From an uncultured Desulfuromonadales bacterium (lineage in GTDB: Bacteria; Desulfobacterota; Desulfuromonadia; Desulfuromonadales; CAZYXS01), in assembly GCA_964650955.1 (NCBI GenBank), contig CAZYXS010000002.1, positions 1 through 53,381 of the forward strand: a DNA stretch of 53,381 nucleotides. The letters are read 5' to 3'. The position numbers and the translations under genes are program-made. Numbering within the stretch: the stretch's first letter is position 1; every line of letters begins with the position of its first letter. The notes under the pieces were generated by a model. That model was not told the DNA's origin, did no database searches, and saw nothing but the letters and a program-made list of their open reading frames with translations. Below are positions 23,388 to 40,969 of this stretch, one piece after another.

Positions 23388-23423
23388 GGGCTGTCCGGAC
23401 CGGGCGGCCCTGCTTTTTTTCTG
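23388..23423 (+). terminator. rho-independent terminator after the FG-GAP gene
   Basis: GCAGGGC-(15 nt)-GCCCTGC followed by TTTTTTT, 28 nt after the stop codon. Confidence 0.6.
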
Positions 23424-23493
23424 GCTGAAATCCGGCACAAAGATTGCTCTGAGACCTGGGGATTTCAGCCACTTCTGTTTCGCAGCGGAGACC

Positions 23494-25944
23494 ATGGAAC
23501 CAACACCGCAACTCGACCGTCGCACCTGCTGGGGGATGTTTTTCCTCTGCATGGCCACCCTGATGTACGAACTGATCCTGACCCGGATCTTTTCGGTGCT
23601 GATGTGGTATCACTTCGCCTCCATGGCCATTTCCCTGGCCCTGTTCGGCATGGGGGTGGCGGCCCTGACCGTCTACCTGCGCCCGGCCTGGTTTCCGCAG
23701 GAGCGGGTGCCATTCCTGGCCTCCCGCTTCGCCGCCCTGTTCGGCGTCGCGGTGGCGCTGTTCTTCGCCATCTTCGTGCTGTTCCGGTTGCAACCGCTCT
23801 TCGGTTTCAAGGTCCTGGCGTTTTTCCATCAACCCTTCTACCAGCCATTCCAGCAGGGTTTCTACGATCGGGCCCTCCCCACCGGTTTGCTCACCGGCCT
23901 GGCAGGGCTCTACCTGATCACCGCCCTCCCCTTCTTTTTCAGTGGGTTGAGCGTCACCCTGCTGCTCAGCCGTCACCTGAGCGGCATCAACCGCCTTTAT
24001 TGCTGGGACCTGCTCGGAGCGGGGGCCGGCTGCCTGTTGATCATCGCCGCCCTCAAGCTGCTGGGAGGCATCACGGCCATTCTGGCCATCGCCCTGATCG
24101 GCCTGCTTTCCGCCCTGCTGCTGATGCCCACCGGCACCTCCTCCATCCATCGGGCCGGCCTGTGGGCCGCAATGTTGCTGATGGTGGCGGCGGGAGGGGT
24201 CAACCTGGCGACCGATTTCGCGGAAATCCGCTTCGTGCGCGGCCGCTACGAGCCGAACCTGCTCTGGAGCAAATGGAACTCTTTTTCCCGCCTGGCGGTC
24301 TACCCGACCCAGGCCCAGGAAATGGACCAGGGGTGGGGCCTTTCCCGCACCTATCGGGGGCCGATCCCTGAGCAACTCGGCATGGTGGTGGACGATACCG
24401 GTTACACCTCCATGTTTCGCCGCGACGACGAACGTTTTCGCGAGTATTTCCGCGCCAACGTACTCGCCCTTCCCTACACCCTCTATCACCAGCCGACTTC
24501 CCTGATCATCGGCCCCGGCGGCGGCAAGGACGTATTGGTAGCCCTGGCCATGGAGTCGCGCCATGTCACTGCGGTGGAGATCAACCCCTTGATCGCCGAG
24601 GCAGTCAACCAGCGCTTCGCCCCTTTTACCGGAGCCCTGTACGACGATCCGCGGGTGGAACTGGCCCTCGACGAGGGGCGCAGCTTCATCCGCCGCTCGC
24701 CGCAGCGCTACGACCTGATCCAGGCCTCGGCGGTGTTCGGCCGCAACGCTCCGGCGGCCGGCGCCTTCACCCTCTCGGAAAACAACCTCTATACCGTCGA
24801 GGCCTTCCGCGACTACTGGAACCACCTCACACCTGACGGAATCCTGACCATTTCCCGGTTCATCTTCGAGCGGGAGACCCTGCGGCTGGTCTCCCTCGGC
24901 CTGGCGCTGCTGCAACAGGAGGGGGTAAGCGATCCGGCCGCCCACCTGGCGGTGATCAAGGAGCGGGGCCTGGCCAATTTCATGCTCAAGCGCTCCCCCT
25001 TCACCCCGCAGGAAATTCAGCAGTTGCGGGAAACGGCCAGGGCCCGGGCATTCGAAGTGGTCTTCCTCCCCGACCAGCGCAGCGGCGACAGCCCCTATGC
25101 CCGCCTGATTGCCACCGGGGGGAGTGAGGATTTTTATCAAAGCTTCCCCTTCGACATCCGCCCCACCGACGATGACCGGCCGTTTTTCTATTACATGTTC
25201 AAACCCCAGGATTTCGTGCGGCTGCTCGGCTTTCCGGAGCAGAGCAACTTCGAGGACCGGGCGGTTTTGATGCTGCGCAACCTGCTGGTGGTGGTCAGCC
25301 TGTTCGTGGCCCTGTTCCTGCTGCTCCCTTTGATCATCGCCAGCCGGGGCAGGCAACCGGCACCGGGGCGCGGTTGGCGCAACCTCTACTTCGCCTGCCT
25401 GGGGCTGGGCTTCATGCTGGTGGAGATCGGCCTGATGCGCCGCTTTGTTCTCTTCCTCGGCCCGCCAATCTACTCCCTGGCGGTGATCCTCTGCACGGTG
25501 CTGGTCTGCTCAGGCCTGGGCGCGCTGCTGGCGGGGCGAATTCCGCCCGGACGGGAGAAACGGGTCCTGCCGATGATCCTCTTGGCACTGGTTTTGCTCA
25601 CTGGAATCACCATATTGACCCTGCCGCCGCTGCTGCAGATGGGGATCACCGCGCCGCTGCCGCTGCGCTGCCTGCTGACGGCGGCGATTCTGGCTCCCCT
25701 GAGTTTGCTGCTCGGCATGCCGCTGCCCCTGGGGATGCGCCTGTTCCACCCGGACAGCGCCGAAGTTGCCTGGAGTTGGGGGATCAACAGCGCCACCAGC
25801 GTGCTCGGCACCATCCTGGCGGTGATCCTGGCCATGAATTTTGGTTTCAACCTGACCCTGCTGGGCGGGATGGCCGTCTACCTGGTCGCCTTGGCGCCGG
25901 TGCTGGCCTACCGGTCGGCACCTCACCTGGCCCCGACCCATTGA
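23494..25944 (+). CDS. fused polytopic membrane / spermidine-synthase-like (class I SAM-dependent aminopropyl/methyl-transferase fold) protein
   Basis: 816 aa. About 7 N-terminal TM helices. The central soluble domain has LIIGPGGGKDVLVAL...VTAVEINP...LDEGRSFI...YDLIQAS (SpeE-like). About 6 C-terminal TM helices. GGAG RBS. Confidence 0.75.
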   Translation: MEPTPQLDRRTCWGMFFLCMATLMYELILTRIFSVLMWYHFASMAISLALFGMGVAALTVYLRPAWFPQERVPFLASRFAALFGVAVALFFAIFVLFRLQPLFGFKVLAFFHQPFYQPFQQGFYDRALPTGLLTGLAGLYLITALPFFFSGLSVTLLLSRHLSGINRLYCWDLLGAGAGCLLIIAALKLLGGITAILAIALIGLLSALLLMPTGTSSIHRAGLWAAMLLMVAAGGVNLATDFAEIRFVRGRYEPNLLWSKWNSFSRLAVYPTQAQEMDQGWGLSRTYRGPIPEQLGMVVDDTGYTSMFRRDDERFREYFRANVLALPYTLYHQPTSLIIGPGGGKDVLVALAMESRHVTAVEINPLIAEAVNQRFAPFTGALYDDPRVELALDEGRSFIRRSPQRYDLIQASAVFGRNAPAAGAFTLSENNLYTVEAFRDYWNHLTPDGILTISRFIFERETLRLVSLGLALLQQEGVSDPAAHLAVIKERGLANFMLKRSPFTPQEIQQLRETARARAFEVVFLPDQRSGDSPYARLIATGGSEDFYQSFPFDIRPTDDDRPFFYYMFKPQDFVRLLGFPEQSNFEDRAVLMLRNLLVVVSLFVALFLLLPLIIASRGRQPAPGRGWRNLYFACLGLGFMLVEIGLMRRFVLFLGPPIYSLAVILCTVLVCSGLGALLAGRIPPGREKRVLPMILLALVLLTGITILTLPPLLQMGITAPLPLRCLLTAAILAPLSLLLGMPLPLGMRLFHPDSAEVAWSWGINSATSVLGTILAVILAMNFGFNLTLLGGMAVYLVALAPVLAYRSAPHLAPTH

Positions 25945-25963
25945 CCTCGCAAAGGACGACTTC

Positions 25964-27034
25964 TTGACCCGACGCCTTCTCATGACCTTGCTCCCCCTGC
26001 TGCTTCTGCTGGCCGCCTGCGACCGCGGCGAAAGAGGCCTGAGCGGCAGCATCATGTTCGGCGACCGGCCACTGGCCGGCGCCCAGGTGGAAATCTACCT
26101 GCGGGGGGAAAAGGATCGCAGCACCCTCCCCTTTGCGGTCACCAACAGCGACGACCGGGGCGGCTATCGCATCAGTCTGCCGCCGGGCCGCTATTATGTC
26201 ATCGGCAAGAAAAGGGAAGAGCTCCCCGGCGGTCAGGTGCGCATGCTGATGGCCGAGTGCCCGGCCAACCCCCTCGAGGTCGCCGCCGGCCTGACCAGTG
26301 TTCCCCCTTTCAGCCTGCGGGAGATGGGGCGGGACGGCGGCCTTGCTCCCGACGCCGACACCTACCTTCAAGGGCGAATCATTAACGAAGGGGCACCGGT
26401 GGCGGAAGCCTTCGTCTATGTCTACAGCGCCGATGCCACTGGGCTGATGGGGCCCTCTTACGGAGAGGCGGTGCAGAGCGACGCGGAGGGGAACTTCCGC
26501 ATCAACCTGCCCGCCGGGCAATGGTACCTGGCGGCGCGCAAACGGGCCGACGGAGCGCGCATGGGCGAACCGGCCCCGGGGGACCTCAACGGCAGCTTCC
26601 CGGGCAATCCGGTGACCCTGGCCAAGGGAAAAACCCTGGATCTGGGGGATTTCCCCCTGACCGTGGTCGACGCCAAGCTCCAGGCCAAACGCCAGGCGGA
26701 AGGGAAATTCCTGCGCACCGACACGGCCCTGCGGGGCCGGGTCACCGATCAGGATGGACAACCCCAGGCCCGGGTCTACGTCTTCGCCTACGCCGACAGC
26801 CGCATGGTGGGCAAACCGGCCTTCATCTCCGACCCTACCGACGCCGAGGGGCGCTACACCCTCTACCTCGGGCAGAGCGGTACTTACTACATCGGCGCCC
26901 GCAGCACCTTCGGCGGCCCCCTTGAGCCGGGGGAATGGGTCGGCACCTTCGACGGCCGGGCCGACCACGGGGCCAATGCGCCCCAGGGCAAGATCACGGA
27001 TTTGGCCGACATCATCGTCCGGGAGGTCTGGTGA
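25964..27034 (+). CDS. carboxypeptidase-regulatory-like three-module lipoprotein, paralog 1
   Basis: TTG start with AAAGGA RBS. Lipobox LLLLAAC. Three about 100-aa modules. Module 2 has AGQWYLAARKRADGARMGEPAPGDLNGSFPGNPV and module 3 has SGTYYIGARSTFGGPLEPGEWVGTFDG. The protein ends in ...REVW. Confidence 0.7.
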   Translation: MTRRLLMTLLPLLLLLAACDRGERGLSGSIMFGDRPLAGAQVEIYLRGEKDRSTLPFAVTNSDDRGGYRISLPPGRYYVIGKKREELPGGQVRMLMAECPANPLEVAAGLTSVPPFSLREMGRDGGLAPDADTYLQGRIINEGAPVAEAFVYVYSADATGLMGPSYGEAVQSDAEGNFRINLPAGQWYLAARKRADGARMGEPAPGDLNGSFPGNPVTLAKGKTLDLGDFPLTVVDAKLQAKRQAEGKFLRTDTALRGRVTDQDGQPQARVYVFAYADSRMVGKPAFISDPTDAEGRYTLYLGQSGTYYIGARSTFGGPLEPGEWVGTFDGRADHGANAPQGKITDLADIIVREVW

Positions 27035-28224
27035 TGCGGTGGATGCTGACCCTGCTTCTGCTGCTGGCGGCCGATGGAGTTCATGCCCAGAGCCTGACCA
27101 AGGACACCCGCTGGCAGGGGACGCGGCAAGTAAAGCAGACGGTCCGGGTCGAACCCGGAGTCGTACTGACCATCGCCCCCGGGACCAGAATCGATTTTGC
27201 GCCGGGCAGCGGTCTCGAAGTGGCGGGGAGCCTGCGGGCGGAAAAGGTCCATTTCACCGGCCTCGGTTGGCTGGGCCTCAGTCTCAAGGGAAGCAGTGGC
27301 AGCCAGCTCAGTGACTGCACCATCGAGGGGGCCCGCACCGGCCTCACCATCCTCGCCGGTTCCCCCCAGCTGCAGCGGCTGTTGCTGAAAAACAATGATG
27401 TCGGGGTGGAGTTGCGCCAGAAGACCGACGCCCGGCTCAGCGACAGCCGGTTCATGGGCAACCGCAAGGTCGGCCTGTTCGTCAAGGACGGCAGCACCGC
27501 CCGGATTACCGGCAACCGCTTCGAGAACAACGGCAAATACGGCGCTTACGTCTACCACGCCGAACCGGCCGAGTTCAGCGGCAACCAGTTCAGCGGCCAT
27601 GCCACCGGCCTGATGATCAGCCATTACGGCAGCGATCCGCTGGTGCAGGGCAACCGCTTCAGCGGCAACGAGGTCGCCATCCTGGTCGACCGGGCGGCCC
27701 GCCCGACGCTGCGGGGAAATCTCCTGCAGGAGAATGCCACCGCCCTGCACTGCTACCGCCGCGCCGACCCGCTGGTGGAGGGCAATCGCTTCGAAAACAA
27801 CCGCCTGGGGACCCTGGTGGCCTTTTCGTCCTACCCGCGGCTGCAGGGCAACGATTTTGTCGGCAACAAACTGGCCCTGCGCCTGGAATATCAGTCCTCC
27901 ACCTGGGAGACCGAACGGGGCGCCGCCACCCGGGCGGCAGAGAGCGGCGCCCAGGGGGCCTTCGGCAAGGGGGAACGGCCCGAGGTGGGAGAAGAACAGC
28001 GTCGCCCCGAACAGCTTACTGGACTGGTGGAGGCCCGTGACAACTGGTGGGGGGAAGCCGGCACCCGGGAACTGGAGCAGATCGGGCTCGACGGCAATCC
28101 CTCCTTCATCGCCGATGGCCGCGACACCCCGACCTTTCTGGAGGCAGGAAAAAGCTACCCTTTGGACCGGGTGCAGTTCGCCCCCTGGAGCAAGATTCCT
28201 CTGACTCGTGAGATGCAACCATGA
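27034..28224 (+). CDS. NosD-like right-handed parallel beta-helix protein (long type), secreted
   Basis: I set the start at ATG 27034 (1-nt TGATG overlap). Signal MRWMLTLLLLLAADGVHA. About 22-aa repeats of P.l.gN.F..N..G.. type. C-terminal ARDNWWG motif. The track start 26935 lies inside the upstream gene. Confidence 0.7.
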   Translation: MRWMLTLLLLLAADGVHAQSLTKDTRWQGTRQVKQTVRVEPGVVLTIAPGTRIDFAPGSGLEVAGSLRAEKVHFTGLGWLGLSLKGSSGSQLSDCTIEGARTGLTILAGSPQLQRLLLKNNDVGVELRQKTDARLSDSRFMGNRKVGLFVKDGSTARITGNRFENNGKYGAYVYHAEPAEFSGNQFSGHATGLMISHYGSDPLVQGNRFSGNEVAILVDRAARPTLRGNLLQENATALHCYRRADPLVEGNRFENNRLGTLVAFSSYPRLQGNDFVGNKLALRLEYQSSTWETERGAATRAAESGAQGAFGKGERPEVGEEQRRPEQLTGLVEARDNWWGEAGTRELEQIGLDGNPSFIADGRDTPTFLEAGKSYPLDRVQFAPWSKIPLTREMQP

Positions 28225-29267
28225 TCCGCTTTTTTCTGCTTCCGAGCCTGCTGCTGAGCCTCTGCGCCAGCGGCGCCCTGGCCGCCTCCGGGGTCAAGGG
28301 GCGGGCGGCCTGGCGTGGTGAACTGGTGCCGGATGTCCGGGTCTCGGCCTACCGCAGCATCGCGCACATCGCCGCCGGCAAGGTTGTCGCCGTATCCGCA
28401 CCGGCCGGGCTCGACGGCACCTATCGCCTCGACCTCGCGCCGGGTGACTATTACCTGGTGGCCCGGGATTTCACCGGCCCGCCCCGCCCCGGCAAGCACT
28501 TCTGCTACTACAGCGGCGCTCCGGTGCGGGTGGTGGCAGGCAGCTACACCAACGTCGGCTTCAACCTGATCCGCATCCCCGAGGAGGCCCCGCCCCAGGG
28601 CGCGCCGGCATCGGGGCTGCGCGGGGAGATCAGCTTCCAGGGAGAGCCGCTGGAGAAGGCTTACCTCTACGTCTACAAGGACCCGAGCAAGGATTTCAAA
28701 GCTCCCCCCTATTTCCTGCAGCCGGTGGAAAAGGGGAGTTTCCGCCTGCGCCTGCCCCCCGGGGAGTATTACCTGCTGGTGCGCAAGCGGGCCAAGGGGG
28801 GGCAGTTCGGTCCCATCGAGATCGGGGACTATTTCAACTATTATTACGGCAACCCGGTGCGCATCGCCGCCGGGGAGGTGCGGGAGGTCAAAATCGAAGC
28901 CATCACCCGCCTCTCCATGCTGGAGGAAGATGAGGAAACCGCCCCCTTCCAGGGTGTCCAGGGCCGGGTTCTGGGCCCGGACGGCAAACCCAGGGCCGGG
29001 CTCTACGTCTGCGCCTACCGCAGCGCGACCATGACGGGCACCCCCGACCACATTTCCCAGCCCACGGCCGCCGATGGCAGTTTCCGCCTCTCCCTGCCCG
29101 GACCGGGCACCTACCACCTGCTCGCCCGGGCCCAACTTGGGGGGCCCGCCGGGGAAGGGGAATATTATGGTAAATTCAAGGGGTCCGGCAATCATGCCCT
29201 GACCCTCGACAAGAAGACGCCGATTCGCGAGGTAATCATCCATGTGGCGAAGAATCCCGCTCCCTGA
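28221..29267 (+). CDS. carboxypeptidase-regulatory-like three-module protein, paralog 2
   Basis: ATGA overlap with the upstream stop. Signal peptide. Module 2 has PGEYYLLVRKRAKGGQFGPIEIGDYFNYYYGNPV and module 3 has PGTYHLLARAQLGGPAGEGEYYGKFKG. Confidence 0.7.
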   Translation: MIRFFLLPSLLLSLCASGALAASGVKGRAAWRGELVPDVRVSAYRSIAHIAAGKVVAVSAPAGLDGTYRLDLAPGDYYLVARDFTGPPRPGKHFCYYSGAPVRVVAGSYTNVGFNLIRIPEEAPPQGAPASGLRGEISFQGEPLEKAYLYVYKDPSKDFKAPPYFLQPVEKGSFRLRLPPGEYYLLVRKRAKGGQFGPIEIGDYFNYYYGNPVRIAAGEVREVKIEAITRLSMLEEDEETAPFQGVQGRVLGPDGKPRAGLYVCAYRSATMTGTPDHISQPTAADGSFRLSLPGPGTYHLLARAQLGGPAGEGEYYGKFKGSGNHALTLDKKTPIREVIIHVAKNPAP

Positions 29268-30618
29268 GGTCGCACTGCTGCTGATGCTGCTGGCCCTGGC
29301 GCCGCTGCGGGCGCTGGCCGAGGAACCGACCATCCTCTCCGGGGAAACCCGCTGGAGCGGCGAGGTCAAGTTGAGCAGAGCTGTCCAGGTCAACCAGGGC
29401 GCCACCCTGATCATCGCCCCCGGTACCCGGATCAGGCCGGCCAAGGCCGAGGCCCGGCTGCTCATCCGGGGACTGCTCAAAGCCCAGGGAACCAGCGCCG
29501 CCCCCATCGTCTTCGCCGGCACGGCCGACTGGCAGGGGATCGAGTTCTACGAATCCGACCCGGCCTCCATCATCGAACAGGCCCGCTTCGAAAAGGCCGC
29601 GACCGCCATCAGCAGCCTTTCGGCCAACTTCACCGTGCGCGGCTCGACTTTCCGCAACTGCGGCACGGCCATCAAGCTGTTGCGGGAGGCGTCCCCATTG
29701 ATCGAAAGCAGCACCTTCGCCGACAACCGCATCGGCATCGACAACGAAATGAAATCGGCCCCGACCATCCGCGGCAACCGCTTCAGTGGTCACAAGGAGA
29801 CCGCCATCCTCGCCTCCCACAACGGCACCGGGCCGATCGAGAATAACCATTTCGAGAAAAACCGCCAGGGAATCGGCCTGATGCAGCGTTTTCAGGACCG
29901 CATCACCGGCAACCGCTTTGTCGAAAACGGCACCGCCATCTTCTGCAATCAGACCCAGGCAACCCCCCTGATTCGCAACAACCAGTTCGAAAAGAACGAC
30001 CTGGCCCTGGTCAATTTTTCCTTCTCCTACCCGCTGGTGGAACACAATCGCTTCAGTGGCAATCGCATTGCCATCCGCAACGACCATTTCGGCTCCCCCC
30101 TGGTCAGCCACAACAGTTTCACCAATAATGAGACGGCCCTTTCCAACCAGCGCAAATCCAATCCGAAGTTGCAGAAGAATCTGTTGAAAAAGAACGGTCT
30201 GGCGATCTTCTGCGACTATTCCAGCTATCCGCTGGTGAAGCAGAACAATTTTGTGGACAATACCATGGCGGTGAAACTGGGGGATTTCCAGAGCGCCGAC
30301 TGGGAAAAAAAGGCGGGTTCGAAGAAGATCGTCATGGAAAAAGCCCAGGAGCGGCAAAGCCAGAACCCCCTGCTGGCCAAGGCGCCGACCCAGTTCGAGG
30401 ATTTCGTCGACGTGCGCGACAACTGGTGGGGTGCGGCCACAGCCGAGTTGGCCCGCGCCGGGGCGGAGGGGAACCTGCCGTTCTTCTATGACCGCCAGGA
30501 CAAACGCACCGTGACCTACGAGGGCTTTGGCAAGGAGGCCTATCTGCTCGACCGGGTGCTGTTCCACCCCTGGCTCAGCGCTCGGGTCGCCGACGCCGGC
30601 CCCAAGGAGGCGCCATGA
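29242..30618 (+). CDS. NosD-like right-handed parallel beta-helix protein (long type), secreted
   Basis: GAGG RBS and a 26-nt overlap with the upstream gene. Signal ...APLRALA. A long series of N.F..N..ai repeats (GNRFSGHKETAI, NNHFEKNRQGI, GNRFVENGTAI, NNQFEKNDLAL, HNRFSGNRIAI, HNSFTNNETAL, ...). VRDNWWG motif. Confidence 0.75.
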   Translation: MWRRIPLPEVALLLMLLALAPLRALAEEPTILSGETRWSGEVKLSRAVQVNQGATLIIAPGTRIRPAKAEARLLIRGLLKAQGTSAAPIVFAGTADWQGIEFYESDPASIIEQARFEKAATAISSLSANFTVRGSTFRNCGTAIKLLREASPLIESSTFADNRIGIDNEMKSAPTIRGNRFSGHKETAILASHNGTGPIENNHFEKNRQGIGLMQRFQDRITGNRFVENGTAIFCNQTQATPLIRNNQFEKNDLALVNFSFSYPLVEHNRFSGNRIAIRNDHFGSPLVSHNSFTNNETALSNQRKSNPKLQKNLLKKNGLAIFCDYSSYPLVKQNNFVDNTMAVKLGDFQSADWEKKAGSKKIVMEKAQERQSQNPLLAKAPTQFEDFVDVRDNWWGAATAELARAGAEGNLPFFYDRQDKRTVTYEGFGKEAYLLDRVLFHPWLSARVADAGPKEAP

Positions 30619-31652
30619 CGCGGATTGTCATCTGGCTGCTGCTGATTCTCGGCTGCACTGAGGCTTTTGCCGCCAACGTCGCGGGGCGGGTGGTGGAAGG
30701 GGACCAGCCTTTGCCCGGCATGCGCGTGGCCGCCTATAATGGTCTCGATTTTTCTGGAACTCCGCTGGCTGTCTCCCCCCCCAGTGATGCCGACGGCCGC
30801 TACCAGTTGGAACTCTCCCCCGGCCTCTATAGCCTCTTCGCCCGTGACGAGACCGGCAGCCGTTTCGCCTTCTGCGGCCGCAACCCCGTGGCGGTGGCGG
30901 CGGAACCGGTCTGGGCCGGGCTGCAGGCCGTGCCGGTGGTGGCGGCGACCAGCCAGCCCTACGATGATCCCGACAGCGCCGCCATTACCGGCACTGTGAC
31001 CTTGGGGGGCAAACCGCTGGCCGGTGCCTATGTCTACCTCTATCTCGACGCCGCCGAAGACCTCAAGGGGCAAGGCTACCGCATGTCCGCTCCCACCGGT
31101 AACGATGGCCGTTTCAGCTTCGATGGCCTGCCCGAAAGCGACTATTTCCTGGTGGCACGCCAGCGAGACAGCGGCGCCCGGGTCGGCCCGGTGCGGGAGG
31201 GGGATGCTCTCGCCATCTACCCCGGCAACCCCGTCCACGCCCGCACGGGCCAACAGTTGACGGTCAGCATGGAGGCGGTGCGCAAGGTGCAGGACGGCAA
31301 GGAGAGCGAGACCATTTCCCGGGCCACCGGCATGGCGATCCGCGGCCAGATCCTCGATCGTCAGCGCCGGCCGGTGGCGGGACTGCATGTCTTCGCCTAC
31401 ACCGACCGGGTGATCGGTCACAAGCGCCCGGAGGCCCTTTCGGCCCCCACCGGCCCCGATGGCCGCTTCATTGTCCATCTGCGGCAACCGGGAACCTTTT
31501 ACATCGGGGCTCGCCAGGAGTACGGCGATTCCCCGGCGCCAGGTGAACTGTTCGGCATGTACGACGCCAGTGCCGACCATGGCCTGGAAGTCGCCCCCGG
31601 ACAGAGCCACGACGACATCCTGATCCTGGTCGAACCGGTGACCCTGGACTGA
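30615..31652 (+). CDS. carboxypeptidase-regulatory-like three-module lipoprotein, paralog 3
   Basis: AAGGAGG RBS and ATGA overlap. Lipobox LILGC. Module 2 has ESDYFLVARQRDSGARVGPVREGDALAIYPGNPV and module 3 has PGTFYIGARQEYGDSPAPGELFGMYDA. Confidence 0.7.
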   Translation: MTRIVIWLLLILGCTEAFAANVAGRVVEGDQPLPGMRVAAYNGLDFSGTPLAVSPPSDADGRYQLELSPGLYSLFARDETGSRFAFCGRNPVAVAAEPVWAGLQAVPVVAATSQPYDDPDSAAITGTVTLGGKPLAGAYVYLYLDAAEDLKGQGYRMSAPTGNDGRFSFDGLPESDYFLVARQRDSGARVGPVREGDALAIYPGNPVHARTGQQLTVSMEAVRKVQDGKESETISRATGMAIRGQILDRQRRPVAGLHVFAYTDRVIGHKRPEALSAPTGPDGRFIVHLRQPGTFYIGARQEYGDSPAPGELFGMYDASADHGLEVAPGQSHDDILILVEPVTLD

Positions 31653-31666
31653 AACCGAGGCAGCCG

Positions 31667-32533
31667 ATGCGTCCCTTGTTCCCAACCCTGCTGCTGTTGC
31701 TGCTGACCGCCTGCAGTCTGCCAAGCCCGGCCCCGCCGGTGCTGGAACTGGAGGATGCGGTGATCCGCGATGAGCAGGTCTGGGGGGGCGAGGTGCGGAT
31801 CCGGGGGATCGTCACGGTGAAGAAGGAAGGGCGCCTCACCATCCTGCCCGGAACCCGGGTGGTCTTCGCCCCTCTCGACCGCGACGGAGACGGCATCGGC
31901 GACGGAGAACTGCTGGTGGAAGGGGCCCTGGTGGCCCGCGGGACGGCGGCCCAGCCGATCCTGTTCACCAGCGGGGCGGAAAAACCGAAAAAAGCGGACT
32001 GGAAATTCCTCTATCTCGATTTCGCCCGCGAGGCGCAAATCGAATACCTGATCTCCGAATACGCCTTCAGCGGGGTGCAGATCCATTTCTGCAAAGCGCG
32101 GGTGGCCAACTCCGTATTCCGTTACAACATCGATGGGCTGCGCTTCTCCACCGTCAACCTGGAGGCGACGGGCAACCTGATCCATGACAACACCCACGGA
32201 GTACGCTACGAGGAGCGCCGGGGCACCGCCCATCTGCATCACAACACCATCCGGGATAACGACATCGGCATCTTCCCCGTCACCCGGGGGGAGGACCGCT
32301 CGCTGTTCGAATACAACAACATCACCGGCAGCCGCCAGTACCAAGTGAAACTCGGTCTGGAGCAGGCAGGTGATGTCACCCTGCCCCGCAACTGGTGGGG
32401 CAGCAACGATCCGGCAGTCATCGAGTCAAGCTTTTTCGACCACCGCTTCGATGCGACCCTCGGCCGGGTCAGCGCCCCCCAGCCCCTGGCCGCGCCAGTG
32501 GCGCCGGCGGGCCCCGCAGGAGTCAAGCCATGA
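31667..32533 (+). CDS. NosD-like beta-helix lipoprotein (short type)
   Basis: Lipobox LLLLTAC. TILPGTRVVFAPLDRDGDGIGDGELLVEGAL.ARGT...PILFTS, then beta-helix repeats and LPRNWWGSNDP. It is collinear with the N-terminal half of the 34982-36811 protein. Confidence 0.7.
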   Translation: MRPLFPTLLLLLLTACSLPSPAPPVLELEDAVIRDEQVWGGEVRIRGIVTVKKEGRLTILPGTRVVFAPLDRDGDGIGDGELLVEGALVARGTAAQPILFTSGAEKPKKADWKFLYLDFAREAQIEYLISEYAFSGVQIHFCKARVANSVFRYNIDGLRFSTVNLEATGNLIHDNTHGVRYEERRGTAHLHHNTIRDNDIGIFPVTRGEDRSLFEYNNITGSRQYQVKLGLEQAGDVTLPRNWWGSNDPAVIESSFFDHRFDATLGRVSAPQPLAAPVAPAGPAGVKP

Positions 32534-33447
32534 GTATCGACCGCCGCCAATTCATTCTCGCCAGCCTGCGCGCCGCCCTGGCCGCGGCCGCCGCCGGCGC
32601 CGTCCCCGCCCTCTGGCTCCCCCGTCCCGCCGCCGCCACCTCCCCCGGGCCGCTGGTGGCCCTGCGCAAGGGGGGGGATATCCCCCGCCTGGTGGATGAG
32701 GTGCTGGCCGCCCTGGGCGGGATGAAACAGTTCGTCAAAACCGGCGAAACCGTGGTAGTCAAACCCAACATCGGCTGGGACCGCACGGTGGAACTGGCTG
32801 CCAACACCCACCCGCTGGTGGTACGCCGGGTGGTGGAGCACTGCCTGGAGGCGGGCGCGAAAAAGGTCCAGGTCTTCGACCGCACCTGTAACGACCCGCG
32901 CCGCTGCTACGTGGCCAGCGGCATCCAGGAGGCGGTGGAAGGGTTGCGCGCCGACCGCGTCAGCGTGGAGCACATGGAGCGCCGGGCCTACCAGGATCTG
33001 GACATCGGCCAGGGGGTGGAGCTGACCAGCTGGTCCTTCTACCAACCGGCGCTGCAGGCCGACCGCTTCATCAACCTGCCCATCGCCAAACACCACTCCA
33101 TCTCCCGCCTGACCCTGGGGATGAAGAACATCATGGGGGTGATCGGCGGCAACCGCGGCACCCTGCACCGCCGCCTGGAGGAGTCCCTCGCCGATATCAA
33201 CAGCGTGGTCCATTCGGACCTGACCCTCATCGACGCCACCCGCATCCTGGTGGCCAACGGCCCGCAGGGGGGACGAATTGAAGATGTCCGCCAGACCGAA
33301 ACCCTGATTGCTTCTGCCGACATCGTCGCCGCCGATGCCCTGGCCACCACTCTTTTCGACCTCAAGCCGGAGGATATTCCCACCCTGGTCACCGCCGCCC
33401 GACGGGGGCTGGGAGTGATGGACCTCGCCAAGATTCGCCGGGCATGA
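32530..33447 (+). CDS. TAT-exported DUF362-family protein
   Basis: ATG 32530 overlaps the upstream TGA. Twin-arginine signal MSIDRRQFILASL...AAAAAGA. DUF362-like blocks VVVKPNIGW, NLPIAKHHSISRLTLGMKNIMGVIGG and IDATRILVANGPQGG. The track start 32395 is an upstream extension. Confidence 0.7.
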   Translation: MSIDRRQFILASLRAALAAAAAGAVPALWLPRPAAATSPGPLVALRKGGDIPRLVDEVLAALGGMKQFVKTGETVVVKPNIGWDRTVELAANTHPLVVRRVVEHCLEAGAKKVQVFDRTCNDPRRCYVASGIQEAVEGLRADRVSVEHMERRAYQDLDIGQGVELTSWSFYQPALQADRFINLPIAKHHSISRLTLGMKNIMGVIGGNRGTLHRRLEESLADINSVVHSDLTLIDATRILVANGPQGGRIEDVRQTETLIASADIVAADALATTLFDLKPEDIPTLVTAARRGLGVMDLAKIRRA

Positions 33448-34985
33448 GAACGCGGCCGTTGCGCCGGTGGCGCCGCGCCACCCAATTACTGGCCCTGCTC
33501 GGGGTGATCTGGTTGTTTCTGCAGACCGACTACCAGGGGCAGGACGAGCTCGCCTTCCCCGTGGCCCTGCTGTTTCGTCTCGATCCCCTGGCCGCTCTGG
33601 CCGCAGCCCTGGCACCGGGGGACTTCCCCTGGGGCCTGCTCTGGCCGGCCCTGCTGCTGCTCGCCTTGACGGTGGTGCTGGGGCGGTTTTTCTGCGGCTG
33701 GCTCTGCCCCCTGGGCACCACCCTCGACGGCTGCGGCGCCCTGCTCGGCGCCGACAACACCACCCCCAGGCCTCGCTGGCGGCGGGTGAAATACCTGCTG
33801 CTGTCCGGCTTGAGTGCGGCGGCCCTGGGGGGTGTGCAACTGCTCGGGGTCTTCGACCCGCTGGCGATCTTCCTGCGCACCCTGACCCTGTCCCTGTTTC
33901 CGGCCTGGAACCTGGCCCTCAACGGCCTGTTCGAGCACTTTTACGCCAGTCAGACCCCCCTTGTCTCCCCCTTGCTCGACTGGGTCTATCCCTTCGCCCG
34001 GGATTACCTGATGGCTTTCCACCAGCCGGTGTTCACCCTCGGCCTGTTCACCCTCGGGGTGTTCGTCGCCATCGCGTTGCTGGAACGCTTCGAGCGCCGC
34101 TTCTGGTGCAAGAATCTCTGCCCCCTTGGGGCCCTGCTCGGCCTGTGCGCCCGCCACGCCCGCCTGCGCCACCTGCCGGCCCCCGATTGCGGCCACTGCG
34201 AGCAATGTACCGCCGCCTGCGCCAGCGGCGCCACCAACCGCCGGCATCATCAGCCCAGCGAATGTCTGCTCTGTTTCGATTGCGCCGGCCACTGCCCCGC
34301 TGCGGAGGTCCAGCTGTTCTGGCGCCGGGCCCCGGCGACGGCGGGGATCGACCTGACCCGCCGCGGCACCGTCGGCGCCCTGGCCGCAGGCGTCCTGCTG
34401 GCGCCGGTAGTGCGCAGCGCCCCGGCCCAGTACCGCCTCGAACCACTGCTGCTGCGCCCCCCGGGGGCGCTGGCGGAAGAAGAATTTCTGCGCCGCTGCG
34501 TCCGCTGCGGCGAATGCCTGAAGGTTTGCATCGGCGCAGCCCTCCACCCGGCCCTGCTGCAGGCCGGCGCCACCGGCCTGTGGACGCCGGTGGTGATGCC
34601 CCGCATCGGCTACTGCGAATACAACTGCACCCTGTGCGGACAGGTCTGCCCCACCGGGGCCATCCGGCGCCTGCCCCTGGAGGAGAAGCGCAAGGTGGTG
34701 ATCGGGTTGGCGGTGATCGAAAAGGATCGCTGCCTCCCCTTCGCCCGCGGCGAGGAATGCCTGGTCTGCGAGGAGCATTGCCCCACCGGCGAGAAGGCCA
34801 TCGTCTTCGAGGATAAGGACGTGCTGGTGCAGGGGGAGGTGCGGCGACTGAAGCTACCGCAGGTGGTCAAGGAGCGCTGCATCGGCTGCGGCATTTGCGA
34901 AACCCGCTGCCCGCTGGAGGGGCGCAGCGCCATCCGGATCTTCAACGACAAGGAGAGCCGCCGGGTCGAGCAGCGTTGGGATTAG
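33444..34985 (+). CDS. NapH/NosH-like membrane polyferredoxin
   Basis: 513 aa. ATGA overlap with the DUF362 gene. TM helices with FCGWLCPLG and WCKNLCPLG (2x CX3CP). Six Cys clusters: CGHCEQCTAAC, CLLCFDCAGHCP, CVRCGECLKVC, CTLCGQVCP, CLVCEEHCP and CIGCGICETRCP. Confidence 0.8.
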   Translation: MRTRPLRRWRRATQLLALLGVIWLFLQTDYQGQDELAFPVALLFRLDPLAALAAALAPGDFPWGLLWPALLLLALTVVLGRFFCGWLCPLGTTLDGCGALLGADNTTPRPRWRRVKYLLLSGLSAAALGGVQLLGVFDPLAIFLRTLTLSLFPAWNLALNGLFEHFYASQTPLVSPLLDWVYPFARDYLMAFHQPVFTLGLFTLGVFVAIALLERFERRFWCKNLCPLGALLGLCARHARLRHLPAPDCGHCEQCTAACASGATNRRHHQPSECLLCFDCAGHCPAAEVQLFWRRAPATAGIDLTRRGTVGALAAGVLLAPVVRSAPAQYRLEPLLLRPPGALAEEEFLRRCVRCGECLKVCIGAALHPALLQAGATGLWTPVVMPRIGYCEYNCTLCGQVCPTGAIRRLPLEEKRKVVIGLAVIEKDRCLPFARGEECLVCEEHCPTGEKAIVFEDKDVLVQGEVRRLKLPQVVKERCIGCGICETRCPLEGRSAIRIFNDKESRRVEQRWD

Positions 34986-36811
34986 GGACCTGGCTGCAGG
35001 GTGAGGGCGCGGATCTGGTGGTCGCGGCTGCCGAACAGAATCAGCCCGGCGAAGGGCACCGGGCGGCTCTGGATCGCCCCTCCGGCCTGAAAGCTGGCAA
35101 GCAGGTCGCCGCTGTCCCGGCCGACCACCGACAGCACCCCGCCGTTATCCCCGACCAGCACCCGCCGCCCCTGTACCAGGGGGGTGCCGTAACTGGGATG
35201 GGGCAAGGCCCGGCGCCAGACAGAGGTGCCGGTTGCCAGGTCGAGGTGGTGGAGGGCGCCTGCCGCCGTGGCCAGAAACAGGGCCTCGCCGTCGATCACC
35301 GGTGCGCCGTAGAAGCAGACTTCACCCAGCGGCCGCCGCCACAGCTCCATCCCTTCCCGATCGAAAGCGGTCAGGGTCCCCTCCCGGTCCACCACCACCG
35401 ACCCGACCGGCCCCAGGGCCGGCGGGGTCAACAGCGGCGCGGCCAGGCGCCGCTGCCAGAGCAGTTCTCCTTTCGGGTTCAGAACATTAAGACTGCCGTC
35501 GCCGGCGGCCAGGTAGATGCGTCCGTCGGCCACCACGGGGGTGGCCCTTAGGGGCCCGGCGGTGCCGAACTGCCAGCGCAACGCCCCGCTGGCCGCATCC
35601 AGGGCGTAGAGGGTGCCGTTCCAGGCCGGCACCAGCAGCAGATCGTCGACCCGCGCCAACCCGCCCTGACGGTGGTCATCCGCCGGCGAAGGGGCGTAGC
35701 GGAAGCGCCAGAGCACCCGTCCCCTGCCCCGCTCCAGGGCCAAGACCTCCCGCCCCCAGGTCTGCACGTAGACCCGTTCAGCATCCAGCGCTACGGCACC
35801 GTCGGCCACCTCCCCCAAATCCGCCTGCCACCGCAGCCTGCCCTTGGCATCCAGGGCGTAAAGGCGGCCATCCCAGCCGGGAATGAACGCCTCCCCGGAC
35901 GCCACCATGGCGGTGGCATCGACAAATCCCGCCGTCGGCAGTTGCCAGGCCGGCTGCAGGCGCAGTCCGTCCCGGGGGCCGGTCCCATCGATCCAGGCGG
36001 GTGCCGGGGTCAGGGTCACCGTGCCGATGCCGGGATCCTGGCGGCGATCGAAGATCCCCTCGGCCACCTGCTCCGGGTCGGCACTCCCCCACCAGTTCTC
36101 CCCCAGCTGGACGTCGGCGGCATAGAAATCCCCGAGGCGGAAGTTGTCCCGGTTGAGCAGGATGTTGTTCTCCTCCACCACCGAGGTGCGGTCGCTTTCG
36201 AACAGGAAGATGCCGGCGCCGTTGCGACGGATGAGGTTGCGGCGGATCTCCACCTTGGCGTTGCGGAAGTTTATCCCCTTGCCCTGGTTGTTTTCGATGA
36301 GGTTGTGGCGCCAGGTGAAGGTCGCCTCCCCAAGGCGGCAGCCGTCGATATTGTTGTGGATGTGGCAATCCTCGACGAGGCCGCGGGTGAAATGGGCATG
36401 CAGGGTGTAGGCGCTGTCGCGGATTTCGCAGTAGCGCAGGTGGATTTCCTTGGAGAAATCGGCATGGATTTCCAGCCAGTCCCCTGGCTGGGGATGCTCG
36501 GCCGCGGAGCGGAAGCGGATCGGTGCCTCGGGGGTCCCCAGGGCGCGCAGCCGCCCTTCGATGTTGAGGGTGCCGTCCCCCAGGCCGTCCTGATTGAGGT
36601 CCTTGGGCACAAAGGCGATGTCGGTGCCGGGTTCGATGGTCAGCACCGCCCCCTTGGCGACCTTGACCTCGCCGTCGATCAGGATCGAGCCGCGCCAGAC
36701 CGTATCCTCGGTGAGGACCAGATTGTGCAGTCGCTGCACCACCGGCGCCTTCGCCAAAGGGGCGCAGGCGGTCAGGGCCAGCAGAAAAACAGCGGCCAGG
36801 GCCTTTACCAC
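34982..36811 (-). CDS. NosD-like beta-helix (short type) fused to PQQ-like beta-propeller, lipoprotein
   Basis: GTG start. Lipobox LLALTAC. The N-terminal half parallels the 31667 protein (TIEPGTDIAFVPKDLNQDGLGDGTLNIEGRLRALGT...LGENWWGSADP). The C-terminal ~330 aa has repeated G.lyALDa.tG...W propeller blades. Confidence 0.75.
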   Translation of the reverse strand: MVKALAAVFLLALTACAPLAKAPVVQRLHNLVLTEDTVWRGSILIDGEVKVAKGAVLTIEPGTDIAFVPKDLNQDGLGDGTLNIEGRLRALGTPEAPIRFRSAAEHPQPGDWLEIHADFSKEIHLRYCEIRDSAYTLHAHFTRGLVEDCHIHNNIDGCRLGEATFTWRHNLIENNQGKGINFRNAKVEIRRNLIRRNGAGIFLFESDRTSVVEENNILLNRDNFRLGDFYAADVQLGENWWGSADPEQVAEGIFDRRQDPGIGTVTLTPAPAWIDGTGPRDGLRLQPAWQLPTAGFVDATAMVASGEAFIPGWDGRLYALDAKGRLRWQADLGEVADGAVALDAERVYVQTWGREVLALERGRGRVLWRFRYAPSPADDHRQGGLARVDDLLLVPAWNGTLYALDAASGALRWQFGTAGPLRATPVVADGRIYLAAGDGSLNVLNPKGELLWQRRLAAPLLTPPALGPVGSVVVDREGTLTAFDREGMELWRRPLGEVCFYGAPVIDGEALFLATAAGALHHLDLATGTSVWRRALPHPSYGTPLVQGRRVLVGDNGGVLSVVGRDSGDLLASFQAGGAIQSRPVPFAGLILFGSRDHQIRALTLQPGP

Positions 36812-40957: not shown

Positions 40958-40969
40958 TCGGGGTTCTCC

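What the first reader, a model, noticed from the sequence alone, without database searches (positions are those of the whole stretch)
25964..32533. Tandem triplication of a two-gene cassette (three-module Ig-like protein + beta-helix protein) with a conserved YY(L/I)xAR...G(P)...GD/GE..G.Y loop motif
Three consecutive, translationally coupled pairs lie here (25964/27034, 28221/29242, 30615/31667). A fourth pair is inverted at 36805/34982 and a solo two-module copy is at 19613. Each CarbopepD-like protein has three about 100-aa modules in the same order.

Module 2 aligns across the paralogs:
- AGQWYLAARKRADGARMGEPAPGDLNGSFPGNPV
- PGEYYLLVRKRAKGGQFGPIEIGDYFNYYYGNPV
- ESDYFLVARQRDSGARVGPVREGDALAIYPGNPV
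- AGTYYLLARQRNSGAAMGPLQAGDFIGYYPGNPL

Module 3 aligns across the paralogs:
- SGTYYIGARSTFGGPLEPGEWVGTFDG
- PGTYHLLARAQLGGPAGEGEYYGKFKG
- PGTFYIGARQEYGDSPAPGELFGMYDA
- GGTYYLVARSELGGAPAPGELYGTYDK
- GGTYYLAARDKFGGPPKLGDLYGRYDQ (19613 protein)

The internal triplication therefore predates the gene-pair duplications. Three of the five proteins end in Trp (REVW, TKVW, EEMW). The beta-helix partners fall into a long type (27034, 29242) and a short type (31667, and the N-terminal half of 34982), and all carry an NWWG motif near the C-terminus. Maintaining so many diverged copies of a cognate pair suggests specificity diversification, for example different clients or substrates per pair, or assembly into a hetero-oligomeric array.
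Basis: seen in the sequence. Interest (0 to 1): 0.7.

Follow-up and report, generated by a model that had tools for sequence, protein, structure and literature searches.

The report
Alternating Ig-like and beta-helix envelope proteins
A Desulfuromonadales genome carries an old, conserved run of alternating secreted three-domain Ig-like proteins and beta-helix proteins that probably form one envelope complex in an uncharacterised redox or metal-handling gene cluster; its function is unknown.

Summary
Four A/B gene pairs and one two-module A copy sit at the stated coordinates. A is a secreted protein or lipoprotein with three CarboxypepD_reg-type beta-sandwich modules. B is a secreted right-handed beta-helix with an NWWG cap.

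The pairs are not a recent tandem triplication:
- Paralogues are only 31-40% identical, and no DNA repeat exceeds 52 nt.
- Each paralogue has its own orthologues (50-82% identity) in the same gene order in other Desulfuromonadales.
- A4 and B4 are under purifying selection (dN/dS 0.13 and 0.21).

The Arg/Gly/Pro/Asp loop motif marks a distinct subfamily of about 350-aa three-module proteins. It is not the generic domain core.

Natural fusion proteins (B2-like+A3-like, and A3-like+B3-like+two modules) indicate that A and B bind each other. Start/stop coupling also runs through the whole ten-gene operon. I therefore favour one hetero-oligomeric array over independent cognate pairs.

The cluster also encodes NapH/NapG-type Fe-S membrane proteins, a Tat-exported DUF362 protein, a haem-domain protein and a Cu/Zn-efflux-like permease. 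In other genomes, A4-like and B3-like genes lie beside giant multihaem cytochromes.

My best guess is a non-catalytic envelope scaffold for an electron-transfer or metal-handling module. Function is inferred, not shown.

The parts
16143..16784 (-). OpuAC-like small periplasmic binding protein; left end of the cluster
   Evidence: ORF. It takes the position that the 201-aa PF04069 gene holds after DUF3467 in L002, L055, L057 and L064. 80% aa identity to the L064 orthologue.
16806..17108 (-). DUF3467 small protein; lies between A3 and B3 in most other genomes
   Evidence: 65-73% identity to DUF3467 genes in L002, L044, L055. Pfam label.
17184..18683 (-). NapH-like polytopic Fe-S membrane protein (Fer4_5), copy a
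   Evidence: PF12801 E 3.6e-10. Weak NapH/MauN hits.
18711..19619 (-). HEAT-repeat (PBS-lyase-like) lipoprotein
   Evidence: HEAT_2 E 1.3e-38. Lipobox LTAC in the translation.
19613..20356 (-). A5: two-module A paralogue (modules 2+3), lipoprotein, ends in TKVW
   Evidence: Has its own orthogroup at 60-79% identity, always in the order EB_dh-A5-HEAT-Fer4_5.
20383..21468 (-). EB_dh haem-binding-domain lipoprotein with a conserved CX3CH. The ORF runs to 21681; the likely start is near 21468.
   Evidence: PF09459 E 4.9e-25. CSMACH conserved as CSYACH in L059 and L060. Orthologues are 342-351 aa.
21837..23360 (+). FG-GAP/ASPIC beta-propeller protein
   Evidence: FG-GAP_3 E 2.2e-62. Sits next to A4-type genes in 18 of 51 related loci.
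23494..25944 (+). 816-aa polytopic membrane protein with a spermidine-synthase-like domain
   Evidence: PF01564. Conserved between B4 and A1 in L014, L031, L032, L034, L040, L055 and L057.
25964..27034 (+). A1: three-module Ig-like lipoprotein, ends in REVW
   Evidence: Orthogroup bootstrap 1.0.
27034..28224 (+). B1: long-type secreted right-handed beta-helix with an NWWG cap
   Evidence: Beta_helix E 1.5e-27 and NosD E 1.6e-25..
28221..29267 (+). A2: three-module Ig-like secreted protein
29242..30618 (+). B2: long-type beta-helix. B2-like domains are fused to A3-like proteins in other organisms.
   Evidence: Beta_helix E 3.9e-41. Fusions P0280, P0290 and P0316.
30615..31652 (+). A3: three-module Ig-like lipoprotein
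31667..32533 (+). B3: short-type beta-helix lipoprotein with a DRDGDGIGDGE insert. The most conserved member, with orthologues at 62-82% identity.
   Evidence: AF2 pLDDT 93.5.
32530..33447 (+). Tat-signal DUF362 protein (MSIDRRQFILASL). Its ATG overlaps the B3 stop codon.
   Evidence: PF04015 E 8.3e-47. Junction sequence. Orthologues of 304-306 aa.
33444..34985 (+). Fused NapH-like membrane domain and NapG-like polyferredoxin (Fer4_5, copy b)
   Evidence: NapG E 8.8e-30 and NapH E 1.2e-14.
34982..36811 (-). B4: short-type beta-helix fused to a PQQ/BamB-like beta-propeller; lipoprotein
   Evidence: dN/dS 0.21 against L064.
36805..37839 (-). A4: three-module Ig-like secreted protein, ends in EEMW
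   Evidence: AF2 pLDDT 93, pTM 0.81. dN/dS 0.13.
37922..38878 (-). ArsP_1-family permease related to SO_0444 Cu/Zn efflux and SaoE; carries a CAC motif
   Evidence: PF03773 E 1.8e-37. NF033936 and NF040736 hits. 92% identity to L064.
38871..39308 (-). FmdE-domain protein
   Evidence: PF02663 E 1.4e-17.
39366..40247 (-). AAA+ protein with degenerate Walker A (GPLGTGIT) and Walker B (SDCE); right end of the cluster
   Evidence: dN/dS 0.08.

Best explanation
The region is the expanded part of a gene cluster of about 24 kb (16143-40247) that is conserved in Desulfuromonadales.

A proteins are exported and have no conserved Cys, His or Met. Each has three transthyretin/CarboxypepD_reg-type beta-sandwich modules packed into one compact body. 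Modules 2 and 3 carry a subfamily-specific loop (R-x-R...G...G-P...G-D/E..G-x-Y). B proteins are exported right-handed beta-helices whose family-wide invariant residues are only structural: an N-terminal Trp cap, an Asn ladder and an NWWG cap.

The A and B paralogues arose by ancient duplications and are all kept under purifying selection. Because they are made in fixed proportion from one translationally coupled operon, I propose that they bind each other and form a single hetero-oligomeric A-B-A-B array in the periplasm or on the cell surface. The lipoprotein members A1, A3, A5, B3 and B4 would anchor it to a membrane.

I propose that the array is a non-catalytic scaffold or adaptor. It would position partners of an extracytoplasmic electron-transfer or metal-handling module. 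Those partners are the NapH/NapG-type Fe-S membrane proteins, the Tat-exported DUF362 protein and the EB_dh haem protein. In other genomes they would include giant multihaem cytochromes.

Shown: the anatomy, the age and conservation of the paralogues, their linkage and the fusions. Inferred: the physical array, its location, and any link to electron transfer.
For: - Anatomy.
- A4 model: pLDDT 93, pTM 0.81, three beta-sandwiches. B3 model: pLDDT 93.5, a beta-helix.
- Conserved residues: no Cys, His or Met among the invariant A residues. B invariants are W, an Asn ladder, R, NWWG and D only.
- Conservation: each paralogue has its own orthologues in the same order in L014, L031, L032, L034, L040, L055 and L057. 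Orthogroup bootstraps are 0.87-1.0. dN/dS is 0.13 for A4 and 0.21 for B4.
- Coupling: overlapping start and stop codons at the junctions, conserved in L055.
- Fusions: B2-like+A3-like (P0290, P0316), B2-like+A4/A3-like (P0280), and A3-like+B3-like+two modules (P0259).
- Redox context in the window.
- Cytochrome context elsewhere: A4-like genes sit next to cytochromes of 14-52 CxxCH in 13 of 51 loci, with TPR and ResB genes. The B3 orthologue in D. acetexigens is directly upstream of a 21-CxxCH, 2395-aa cytochrome. The P0259 fusion follows an 8-haem cytochrome-HEAT-TPR protein.
Against: - No c-type cytochrome is encoded in the window.
- Canonical clusters in other genomes also lack one within the stretches read.
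- The cytochrome link rests on paralogues or orthologues in other loci, not on this cluster.
- No A-B complex was modelled or measured.
- Fusions prove a functional link but not the proposed alternating array.
- The core module (CxC permease, FmdE, AAA) points to metal handling as much as to electron transfer.
- A-like genes in other phyla sit next to PMT_2 glycosyltransferases, so the A fold may serve several systems.
Confidence: 0.4

Rival explanations
1. A NosD-like extracytoplasmic trafficking or assembly line. The CxC permease, with FmdE and the degenerate AAA protein on the cytoplasmic side, exports a thiophilic metal or metalloid. The beta-helix B proteins, helped by the DUF4198-like A proteins, carry or insert it into a periplasmic target such as the Tat-exported DUF362 protein. 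NapH/NapG-type proteins supply electrons, as NosR/NosH do for N2O reductase.
For: - B1, B2 and B4 pass the Pfam NosD cutoff.
- Two Fer4_5 proteins of the NosR/NosH/NapH class are present.
- The permease is related to SO_0444 Cu/Zn efflux and SaoE and has a CAC motif (preprint 10.1101/2022.07.06.499078).
- AAA-FmdE-permease-A4-B4 is the invariant core of every cluster variant.
- A proteins hit the C-terminal domain of DUF4198. Secreted DUF4198 proteins accompany extracytosolic iron-reductase-like PepSY systems (preprint 10.1101/2021.01.07.425746).
- The sister A5 operon elsewhere carries a YeeE-type sulfur transporter and a cysteine-desulfurase-like gene.
Against: - B proteins score 17-66 bits against the NosD family model, whose cutoff is 300.
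- B1 matches the solved NosD structure only at E 0.003. B3 matches it structurally only at E 0.057.
- No nosZ, nosF, nosY or nosL was found in the window.
- No His, Cys or Met is conserved across the B paralogues or in A.
- Four to five paralogous sets are hard to explain for a chaperone.
Confidence: 0.22
2. Independent cognate A/B pairs, each specialised for a different client or substrate.
For: - Each pair is a separately conserved orthogroup.
- A1/B1, A2/B2 and A4/B4 adjacency and overlaps are conserved.
- Reduced clusters keep just A4/B4 plus one long B.
- The weak A3+A4 grouping mirrors the B3+B4 grouping.
Against: - B2-like+A3-like fusions cross the pair boundary.
- B1/A2 and B2/A3 are coupled as tightly as A/B within a pair.
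- A3 and B3 are separated by DUF3467 in most genomes.
- The block A1 to A3 is gained or lost as a unit between close relatives.
Confidence: 0.18
3. Cell-surface glycan or exopolysaccharide machinery. The B proteins are CASH-type beta-helix glycan lyases, epimerases or binders. The A proteins are carbohydrate-binding Ig-like partners. FG-GAP, TPR-like and propeller proteins act as periplasmic scaffolds, as in the alginate AlgG/K/X system.
For: - The best structural match of B3 is the alginate epimerase AlgG, followed by other polysaccharide-active beta-helices.
- There is a weak Pect-lyase_RHGA_epim hit for B2.
- A-like genes in other phyla overlap PMT_2 (GT-C) glycosyltransferase genes.
Against: - The AlgG match is marginal (E 9.5e-4, TM 0.33).
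- No acidic or His catalytic residues are conserved across the B family.
- No glycosyltransferase, polymerase, flippase or export gene lies in the cluster.
- The neighbours are Fe-S and haem proteins.
Confidence: 0.1

Closest known systems
NosD and the NosDFY-NosL assembly machinery of N2O reductase, with NosR/NosH
   Same: A periplasmic right-handed beta-helix with PbH1 repeats (Pfam NosD/Beta_helix hits). It is encoded with Fer4_5 (NapH/NosR-class) membrane Fe-S proteins and a lipoprotein partner.
   Different: Scores lie far below the NosD family cutoff (17-66 bits against 300). The match to solved NosD is E 0.003. The window has no NosZ, NosF/Y ABC transporter or NosL. The partner is a three-module Ig-like protein. 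There are four paralogous beta-helices, not one.
CarboxypepD_reg (PF13620) transthyretin-like domains, and the secreted DUF4198 (PF10670) proteins of Ni/Co-uptake and PepSY-type systems
   Same: The same beta-sandwich fold. A proteins pass the PF13620 cutoff, and A1, A3 and A4 pass the PF10670 cutoff through its C-terminal domain.
   Different: Only about 60-70 of the 209 DUF4198 profile positions match. A has exactly three modules in a fixed order. Modules 2 and 3 carry the Arg/Gly/Pro/Asp loop, which generic multi-repeat CarboxypepD_reg proteins lack.
NapH-like extracytosolic electron-transfer gene clusters (Meheust et al., preprint 10.1101/2021.01.07.425746)
   Same: A PF12801 membrane Fe-S protein is encoded together with secreted proteins and lipoproteins of unknown redox role.
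   Different: No FMN-binding or ApbE flavinylation component was detected in the window. The secreted partners here are A/B arrays, a Tat-exported DUF362 protein and an EB_dh haem protein.
The alginate periplasmic scaffold (AlgG beta-helix epimerase with AlgK and AlgX)
   Same: A periplasmic beta-helix working with repeat-protein and beta-sandwich partners. AlgG is the top structural match for B3.
   Different: The similarity is marginal (TM 0.33). No catalytic residues are conserved. There are no polysaccharide synthesis or export genes.
Multi-domain CnaB/prealbumin-like pilins and NOMO of the BOS complex
   Same: Tandem transthyretin-like Ig domains. These are the best structural and sequence matches for A4.
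   Different: TM is only about 0.2, so the match is at the level of a single domain. A has no sortase or isopeptide features. A is compact (pTM 0.81) rather than an extended stalk.

Membership tests
CarboxypepD_reg (PF13620) | Score above Pfam's gathering cutoff (32.3 bits) | tested here: met
   A1 67.2, A2 47.8, A3 67.5, A4 60.0 and A5 48.6 bits.
CarboxypepD_reg (PF13620) | Match over the whole 82-position domain profile | tested here: not met
   The best stretches stop at profile position 55-57 of 82, just before the subfamily-specific loop. Generic repeat proteins in turn match mostly positions 4-60 of the A-module profile.
DUF4198 (PF10670) | Full-length match to the 209-position profile | tested here: not met
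   Only positions about 135-207 match. A1, A3 and A4 pass the 34-bit cutoff on this C-terminal domain alone; A2 and A5 do not.
NosD (TIGR04247 NosD_copper_fam) | Score above the curated cutoff of 300 bits | tested here: not met
   B1 66, B2 49.4, B3 16.9 and B4 18.1 bits. B1 against solved NosD 7o0y gives E 0.003.
NosD (TIGR04247 NosD_copper_fam) | Operon context with nosZ, nosF, nosY and nosL | tested here: not met
   None appeared in Pfam or NCBIfam scans of the window's large ORFs.
Right-handed beta-helix (PF13229 / PF05048 domain level) | Pfam domain hit above cutoff, and a beta-helix fold | tested here: met
   B1, B2 and B4 are above both cutoffs. B3 is just below them (22.3 against 25.9), but its model is a beta-helix with pLDDT 93.5.
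AlgG-type C5-epimerase / polysaccharide lyase | Close structural match, and conserved catalytic acid/His residues | tested here: not met
   The best match is E 9.5e-4 with TM 0.33. No conserved acidic or His column runs across the B paralogues.
BamB (TIGR03300) | Score above the 285-bit cutoff | tested here: not met
   The B4 C-terminal propeller scores 122.9 bits, which shows a PQQ_2-type propeller only.
NapH-like flavinylated extracytosolic electron-transfer system | A PF12801 protein together with an FMN-binding domain or ApbE in the cluster | tested here: inconclusive
   Two PF12801 proteins are present. No FMN_bind or ApbE hit appeared among the scanned ORFs, but small ORFs were not all scanned.
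Porin-cytochrome / multihaem EET clusters | Multihaem c-type cytochrome genes in the cluster | tested here: not met
   No ORF in the window has more than one CxxCH. Cytochromes are adjacent only to paralogues or orthologues in other genomes.

The most novel reading that the evidence does not exclude
The alternating A/B proteins would be the building blocks of a previously undescribed envelope structure of Desulfuromonadales. This would be a non-haem protein scaffold, anchored by lipoproteins. It would dock giant multihaem cytochromes or Fe-S/haem partners and link NapH/NapG-type quinol oxidation to an extracellular or periplasmic acceptor. On this reading it is a new architectural class of electron-conduit accessory machinery.
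Probability: 0.2. Interest if true: 0.8.

Novelty: new variant of a known kind. Interest (0 to 1): 0.55.

Why it matters
Desulfuromonadales are model metal-, sulfur- and electrode-respiring bacteria. Their envelope electron-transfer machinery has so far been described almost only in terms of cytochromes and porins.

This work defines a conserved but uncharacterised set of about 20 genes. It includes a distinct three-module Ig-like subfamily that runs to hundreds of clusters at 50% identity, and its beta-helix partners. It also identifies natural fusions that predict direct A-B binding. Members of both families recur next to giant multihaem cytochromes.

If the scaffold idea is right, it gives a testable handle on how very large extracellular cytochromes or periplasmic Fe-S enzymes are positioned. 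If the NosD-like idea is right, it would extend beta-helix-mediated cofactor trafficking beyond N2O reductase. Either way the cluster can be studied in cultured strains: D. versatilis has the reduced form, Desulfuromonas sp. DDH964 has the A5 operon, and D. acetexigens has B3 next to a cytochrome.

Tried and rejected
- The genome scan with the five-paralogue alignment failed because no stretch was conserved enough. I repeated it with an alignment of A4 orthologues.
- A Biopython bootstrap timed out. I replaced it with a numpy/NJ bootstrap.
- The tree of the window's 14 modules alone was unresolved (bootstraps 0.08-0.43). Adding orthologues to reach 109 modules resolved module 3.
- The context tags in the A4-like tree were partly unreliable. 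Stop-to-stop ORFs in alternative frames had joined the 'B4' cluster, so I relied on the BLAST-labelled contexts instead.
- A recent tandem duplication or gene conversion is rejected. No DNA repeat exceeds 52 nt, and those found are motif-level only.
- NCBIfam has no family for A1-A4.
- The PDB sequence search and Foldseek searches gave only generic Ig-like or beta-helix matches.
- The literature searches and targeted reading of individual papers found no description of this cluster. The library covers open-access papers only.
- dN/dS between paralogues was not attempted, because at 31-40% aa identity synonymous sites are saturated. I measured it on orthologues instead.
- A conserved His cluster on B3 (H140, H173, H177, H191) looked like a possible metal site. 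It is not shared with B4, B1 or B2, so I did not use it as evidence.

Full report
**1. Observation**

- On the + strand: A1 25964-27034, B1 27034-28224, A2 28221-29267, B2 29242-30618, A3 30615-31652, B3 31667-32533.
- On the - strand: A4 36805-37839, B4 34982-36811, and the two-module A5 19613-20356.

Every A passes the Pfam CarboxypepD_reg cutoff and hits the C-terminal domain of DUF4198. B1, B2 and B4 pass the Beta_helix and NosD cutoffs. B3 is just below them, and B4 adds a PQQ/BamB-like propeller.

A paralogues are 31-41% identical. B1/B2 are 28.5% identical and B3/B4 are 37.7% identical. The five A proteins align over their whole length, and A5 corresponds to modules 2+3.

All nine proteins start with signal peptides. 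A1, A3, A5, B3 and B4 have lipoboxes, read by eye from the translations.

The junctions are TGATG, ATGA, a 26-nt overlap, ATGA, and a 14-nt spacer with GAGG. The same ATGA coupling continues at B3/DUF362 (ATG at 32530) and at DUF362/Fer4_5 (33444). Coupling is therefore a property of the whole operon and is not specific to the pairs.

**2. Anatomy**

An AlphaFold2 model of A4, built on 77 homologues, has pLDDT 93 and pTM 0.81. It shows three beta-sandwich modules (about residues 24-109, 127-226 and 242-339) and a short helix at 230-238. The high pTM implies a compact, fixed arrangement of the modules. Foldseek finds only generic CnaB/pilin-type Ig domains at TM about 0.2, and a PDB sequence search finds only NOMO weakly.

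The motif lies on the strand G-x-Y-Y-L-x-A-R and on the long loop that follows, before the next strand (R-x-R..G...G-P...G-D..G-x-Y-x-G-N-P in module 2; a loop four residues shorter in module 3). Across 77 homologues the invariant residues are Gly, Pro, Arg, Asp, Asn, Tyr and Ser, with no Cys, His or Met.

The B3 model has pLDDT 93.5 and pTM 0.88 and is a right-handed beta-helix. Its best structural match is AlgG at E 9.5e-4 and TM 0.33, and solved NosD appears only at E 0.057. B1 matches solved NosD at E 0.003. Across 33 B-family sequences the conserved columns are an N-terminal Trp/Gly cap, an Asn ladder, one Arg, NWWG and one Asp. This is a structural pattern with no sign of a catalytic one.

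**3. Is the motif generic?**

I searched a profile of the ten module-2 and module-3 sequences against 1.84 billion representative proteins. It gave 50,705 hits at E<=1e-3 and 471 at E<=1e-30.

Giant proteins with 10-33 repeats mostly match only profile positions about 4-60. Proteins of about 330-430 aa with exactly three matched stretches match positions 2-104. A regular expression for the loop scores 2 in each window A and a mean of 1.5 in the 88 proteins of up to 460 aa, most of them three-module. It scores 0-1 in multi-thousand-residue repeat proteins and 0 in every non-A protein of the cluster.

The motif defines a subfamily.

**4. Age and evolution**

- No DNA repeat longer than 52 nt links the copies.
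- A4, B3 and A5 each have hundreds of close homologues: A4 at 52-83% identity, B3 at 62-82% and A5 at 60-79%.
- In neighbour-joining trees with orthologues from 12 other loci, A1-A4 each form clades with bootstrap 1.0 and B1-B4 with 0.87-0.94. B3+B4 separate from B1+B2 at 0.895. A3+A4 is the best-supported deep A grouping, but only at 0.445.
- With 109 modules, module 3 is monophyletic (0.82) and modules never group by protein. The three-module plan therefore predates the paralogues.
- Against the closest relative (L064), dN/dS is 0.13 for A4 and 0.21 for B4.

**5. The cluster**

Pfam and NCBIfam scans bound the cluster at 16143-40247. Housekeeping genes lie on one side (ComEA, FtsB, SPOR, an epimerase, TilS, FtsH) and unrelated genes on the other. 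Its members, in window order, are:
- an OpuAC-like protein and DUF3467;
- NapH-like Fer4_5a, a HEAT lipoprotein, A5 and an EB_dh haem-domain protein with a conserved CX3CH;
- an FG-GAP/ASPIC propeller and a membrane protein with a spermidine-synthase-like domain;
- A1-B1-A2-B2-A3-B3;
- a Tat-signal DUF362 protein and a fused NapH/NapG-like protein;
- B4, A4 and an ArsP_1 permease related to SO_0444 Cu/Zn efflux and SaoE, with a CAC motif;
- FmdE, and an AAA+ protein with degenerate Walker A and Walker B motifs that is nevertheless 84-92% conserved.

Other Desulfuromonadales carry the canonical order AAA-FmdE-ArsP-(FG-GAP)-A4-B4-SpmS-A1-B1-A2-B2-A3-DUF3467-B3-OpuAC-DUF362-Fer4_5-DUF3047.

A reduced form, AAA-FmdE-ArsP-A4-B4-B(long)-DUF3467-OpuAC, occurs in D. 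versatilis and others. It also occurs in the closest relative of the window (A4 82% identical), at the same chromosomal site. The window therefore differs from that relative by a block of about 17.9 kb (17184-34985).

The first part of that block (EB_dh-A5-HEAT-Fer4_5) is, in other genomes, the start of a separate operon. That operon continues with two beta-helix genes, a PhnD-like gene, a YeeE-like gene, PqqD, radical-SAM/SPASM genes and an aminotransferase.

**6. Do A and B work together?**

Adjacency and overlaps are conserved across genera. Natural fusions also exist:
- P0316 and P0290 are B2-like+A3-like.
- P0280 is B2-like+A4/A3-like.
- P0299 is a truncated copy of the same type.
- P0259 is A3-like+B3-like+two further modules.

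These fusions reproduce the gene orders B2 to A3 and A3 to B3. In most genomes DUF3467 separates A3 from B3. This fits a chain or hetero-oligomer better than isolated pairs.

**7. Other contexts**

Of 51 genome loci found with the A4 profile, about a dozen are the cluster described above. In 13 loci the A4-like gene lies by a giant multihaem cytochrome with up to 52 CxxCH, together with a TPR protein, an unknown lipoprotein, often an FG-GAP protein, and ResB.

The B3 orthologue of D. acetexigens is directly upstream of a 2395-aa, 21-CxxCH cytochrome. The P0259 fusion follows an 8-haem cytochrome-HEAT-TPR protein.

The window itself has no multihaem cytochrome. In two MAGs, one of them assigned to Candidatus Poribacteria, an A-like gene overlaps or abuts a PMT_2 glycosyltransferase gene.

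**8. Mechanism**

My best reading (confidence 0.4) is that A and B are non-catalytic. They are made in fixed proportion and assemble into a lipoprotein-anchored hetero-oligomeric array in the envelope. This array would organise an extracytoplasmic redox or metal-handling module.

The anatomy, conservation, linkage and fusions are shown. The physical array and its role are inferred.

Rivals:
- A NosD-like trafficking line fed by the CxC permease (0.22). This is supported by the invariant AAA-FmdE-permease-A4-B4 core. It is weakened by the failed NosD membership tests and the lack of conserved metal ligands.
- Independent cognate pairs (0.18).
- Glycan machinery (0.10).

**9. Comparison and novelty**

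The domains are known. The three-module loop-bearing A subfamily, its beta-helix partners and the cluster of about 20 genes are not described in any paper I could find, though the search was limited to open-access literature. It is not a Nos system, not a DUF4198 transporter component, and not an alginate-type system; the membership tests give the details. I rate it a new variant of known kinds, with a 0.2 chance that it is a new class of envelope machinery.

Noticed in passing
window 39366-40247 (-): This AAA+ protein has Walker A GPLGTGIT (Lys replaced by Ile) and Walker B SDCE (Glu replaced by Cys). Both changes are identical in the L064, L002, L014, L031 and L043 orthologues; in L040 the Walker A change was seen but the Walker B pattern was not matched. 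The protein is nevertheless 84-92% conserved with dN/dS 0.08. It looks like a strongly constrained pseudo-ATPase.
   Followed up: partly
window 17184-34985 compared with L064 13128-14492: The closest relative (A4 82% aa identity) has the same flanking genes. It carries a single long beta-helix gene where the window has a block of about 17.9 kb: EB_dh-A5-HEAT-Fer4_5 plus FG-GAP through Fer4_5b. The expansion block is gained or lost as a unit, and in the window it is inverted relative to A4-B4.
   Followed up: partly
L059 8953-20759; L060; L061: In other Desulfuromonadales the EB_dh-A5-HEAT-Fer4_5 genes begin a separate operon preceded by a sigma-54 response regulator gene. The operon continues with two beta-helix genes, a PhnD-like binding protein, a YeeE/Sulf_transp gene, PqqD, radical-SAM/SPASM genes and an Aminotran_5 gene. 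This suggests a peptide or cofactor maturation step.
   Followed up: no
window 20383-21468 (-): The EB_dh haem-domain protein carries a CX3CH motif (CSMACH) that is conserved as CSYACH in orthologues. This may be a covalent haem attachment site in a family usually treated as binding haem b.
   Followed up: partly
window 33444-34985 (+): A single polypeptide combines a NapH-like membrane domain (Fer4_5) with a NapG-like polyferredoxin. It is translationally coupled (ATGA) to a Tat-signal DUF362 protein (32530-33447). This looks like a candidate quinol-linked redox pair of unknown substrate.
   Followed up: no
window 31667-32533 (B3 residues 69-81) and B4 34982-36811: The short-type beta-helices carry an insert, DRDGDGIGDGE in B3 and DLNQDGLGDG in B4. 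It resembles DxDxDG calcium-binding loops and is invariant in 47 B3 orthologues.
   Followed up: no
L010 1009-8001; L027 34-7899; L039 1407-9359; L054 11168-18355: Giant multihaem cytochromes of 2300-2650 aa with 14-52 CxxCH lie next to A4-like or B3-like genes. Nearby are a TPR protein, an unknown lipoprotein of about 270 aa (for example L010 11106-12035) and ResB.
   Followed up: partly
L062 353-2897; L063 8001-10455: In two MAGs, one of them assigned to Candidatus Poribacteria, a three-module A-like gene overlaps or abuts a PMT_2 (GT-C) membrane glycosyltransferase gene. This is a different partner from the beta-helix proteins.
   Followed up: no
window 22004-23033: Seven direct DNA repeats of 52 nt, spaced about 159 nt apart, encode the FADIDNDGDLDLYV calcium-binding repeats of the FG-GAP propeller.
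   Followed up: no
window 40811-44539 (-): Four consecutive long minus-strand ORFs (267-362 aa) have no Pfam family. In 67% GC DNA they could be real unknown genes or spurious ORFs.
   Followed up: no
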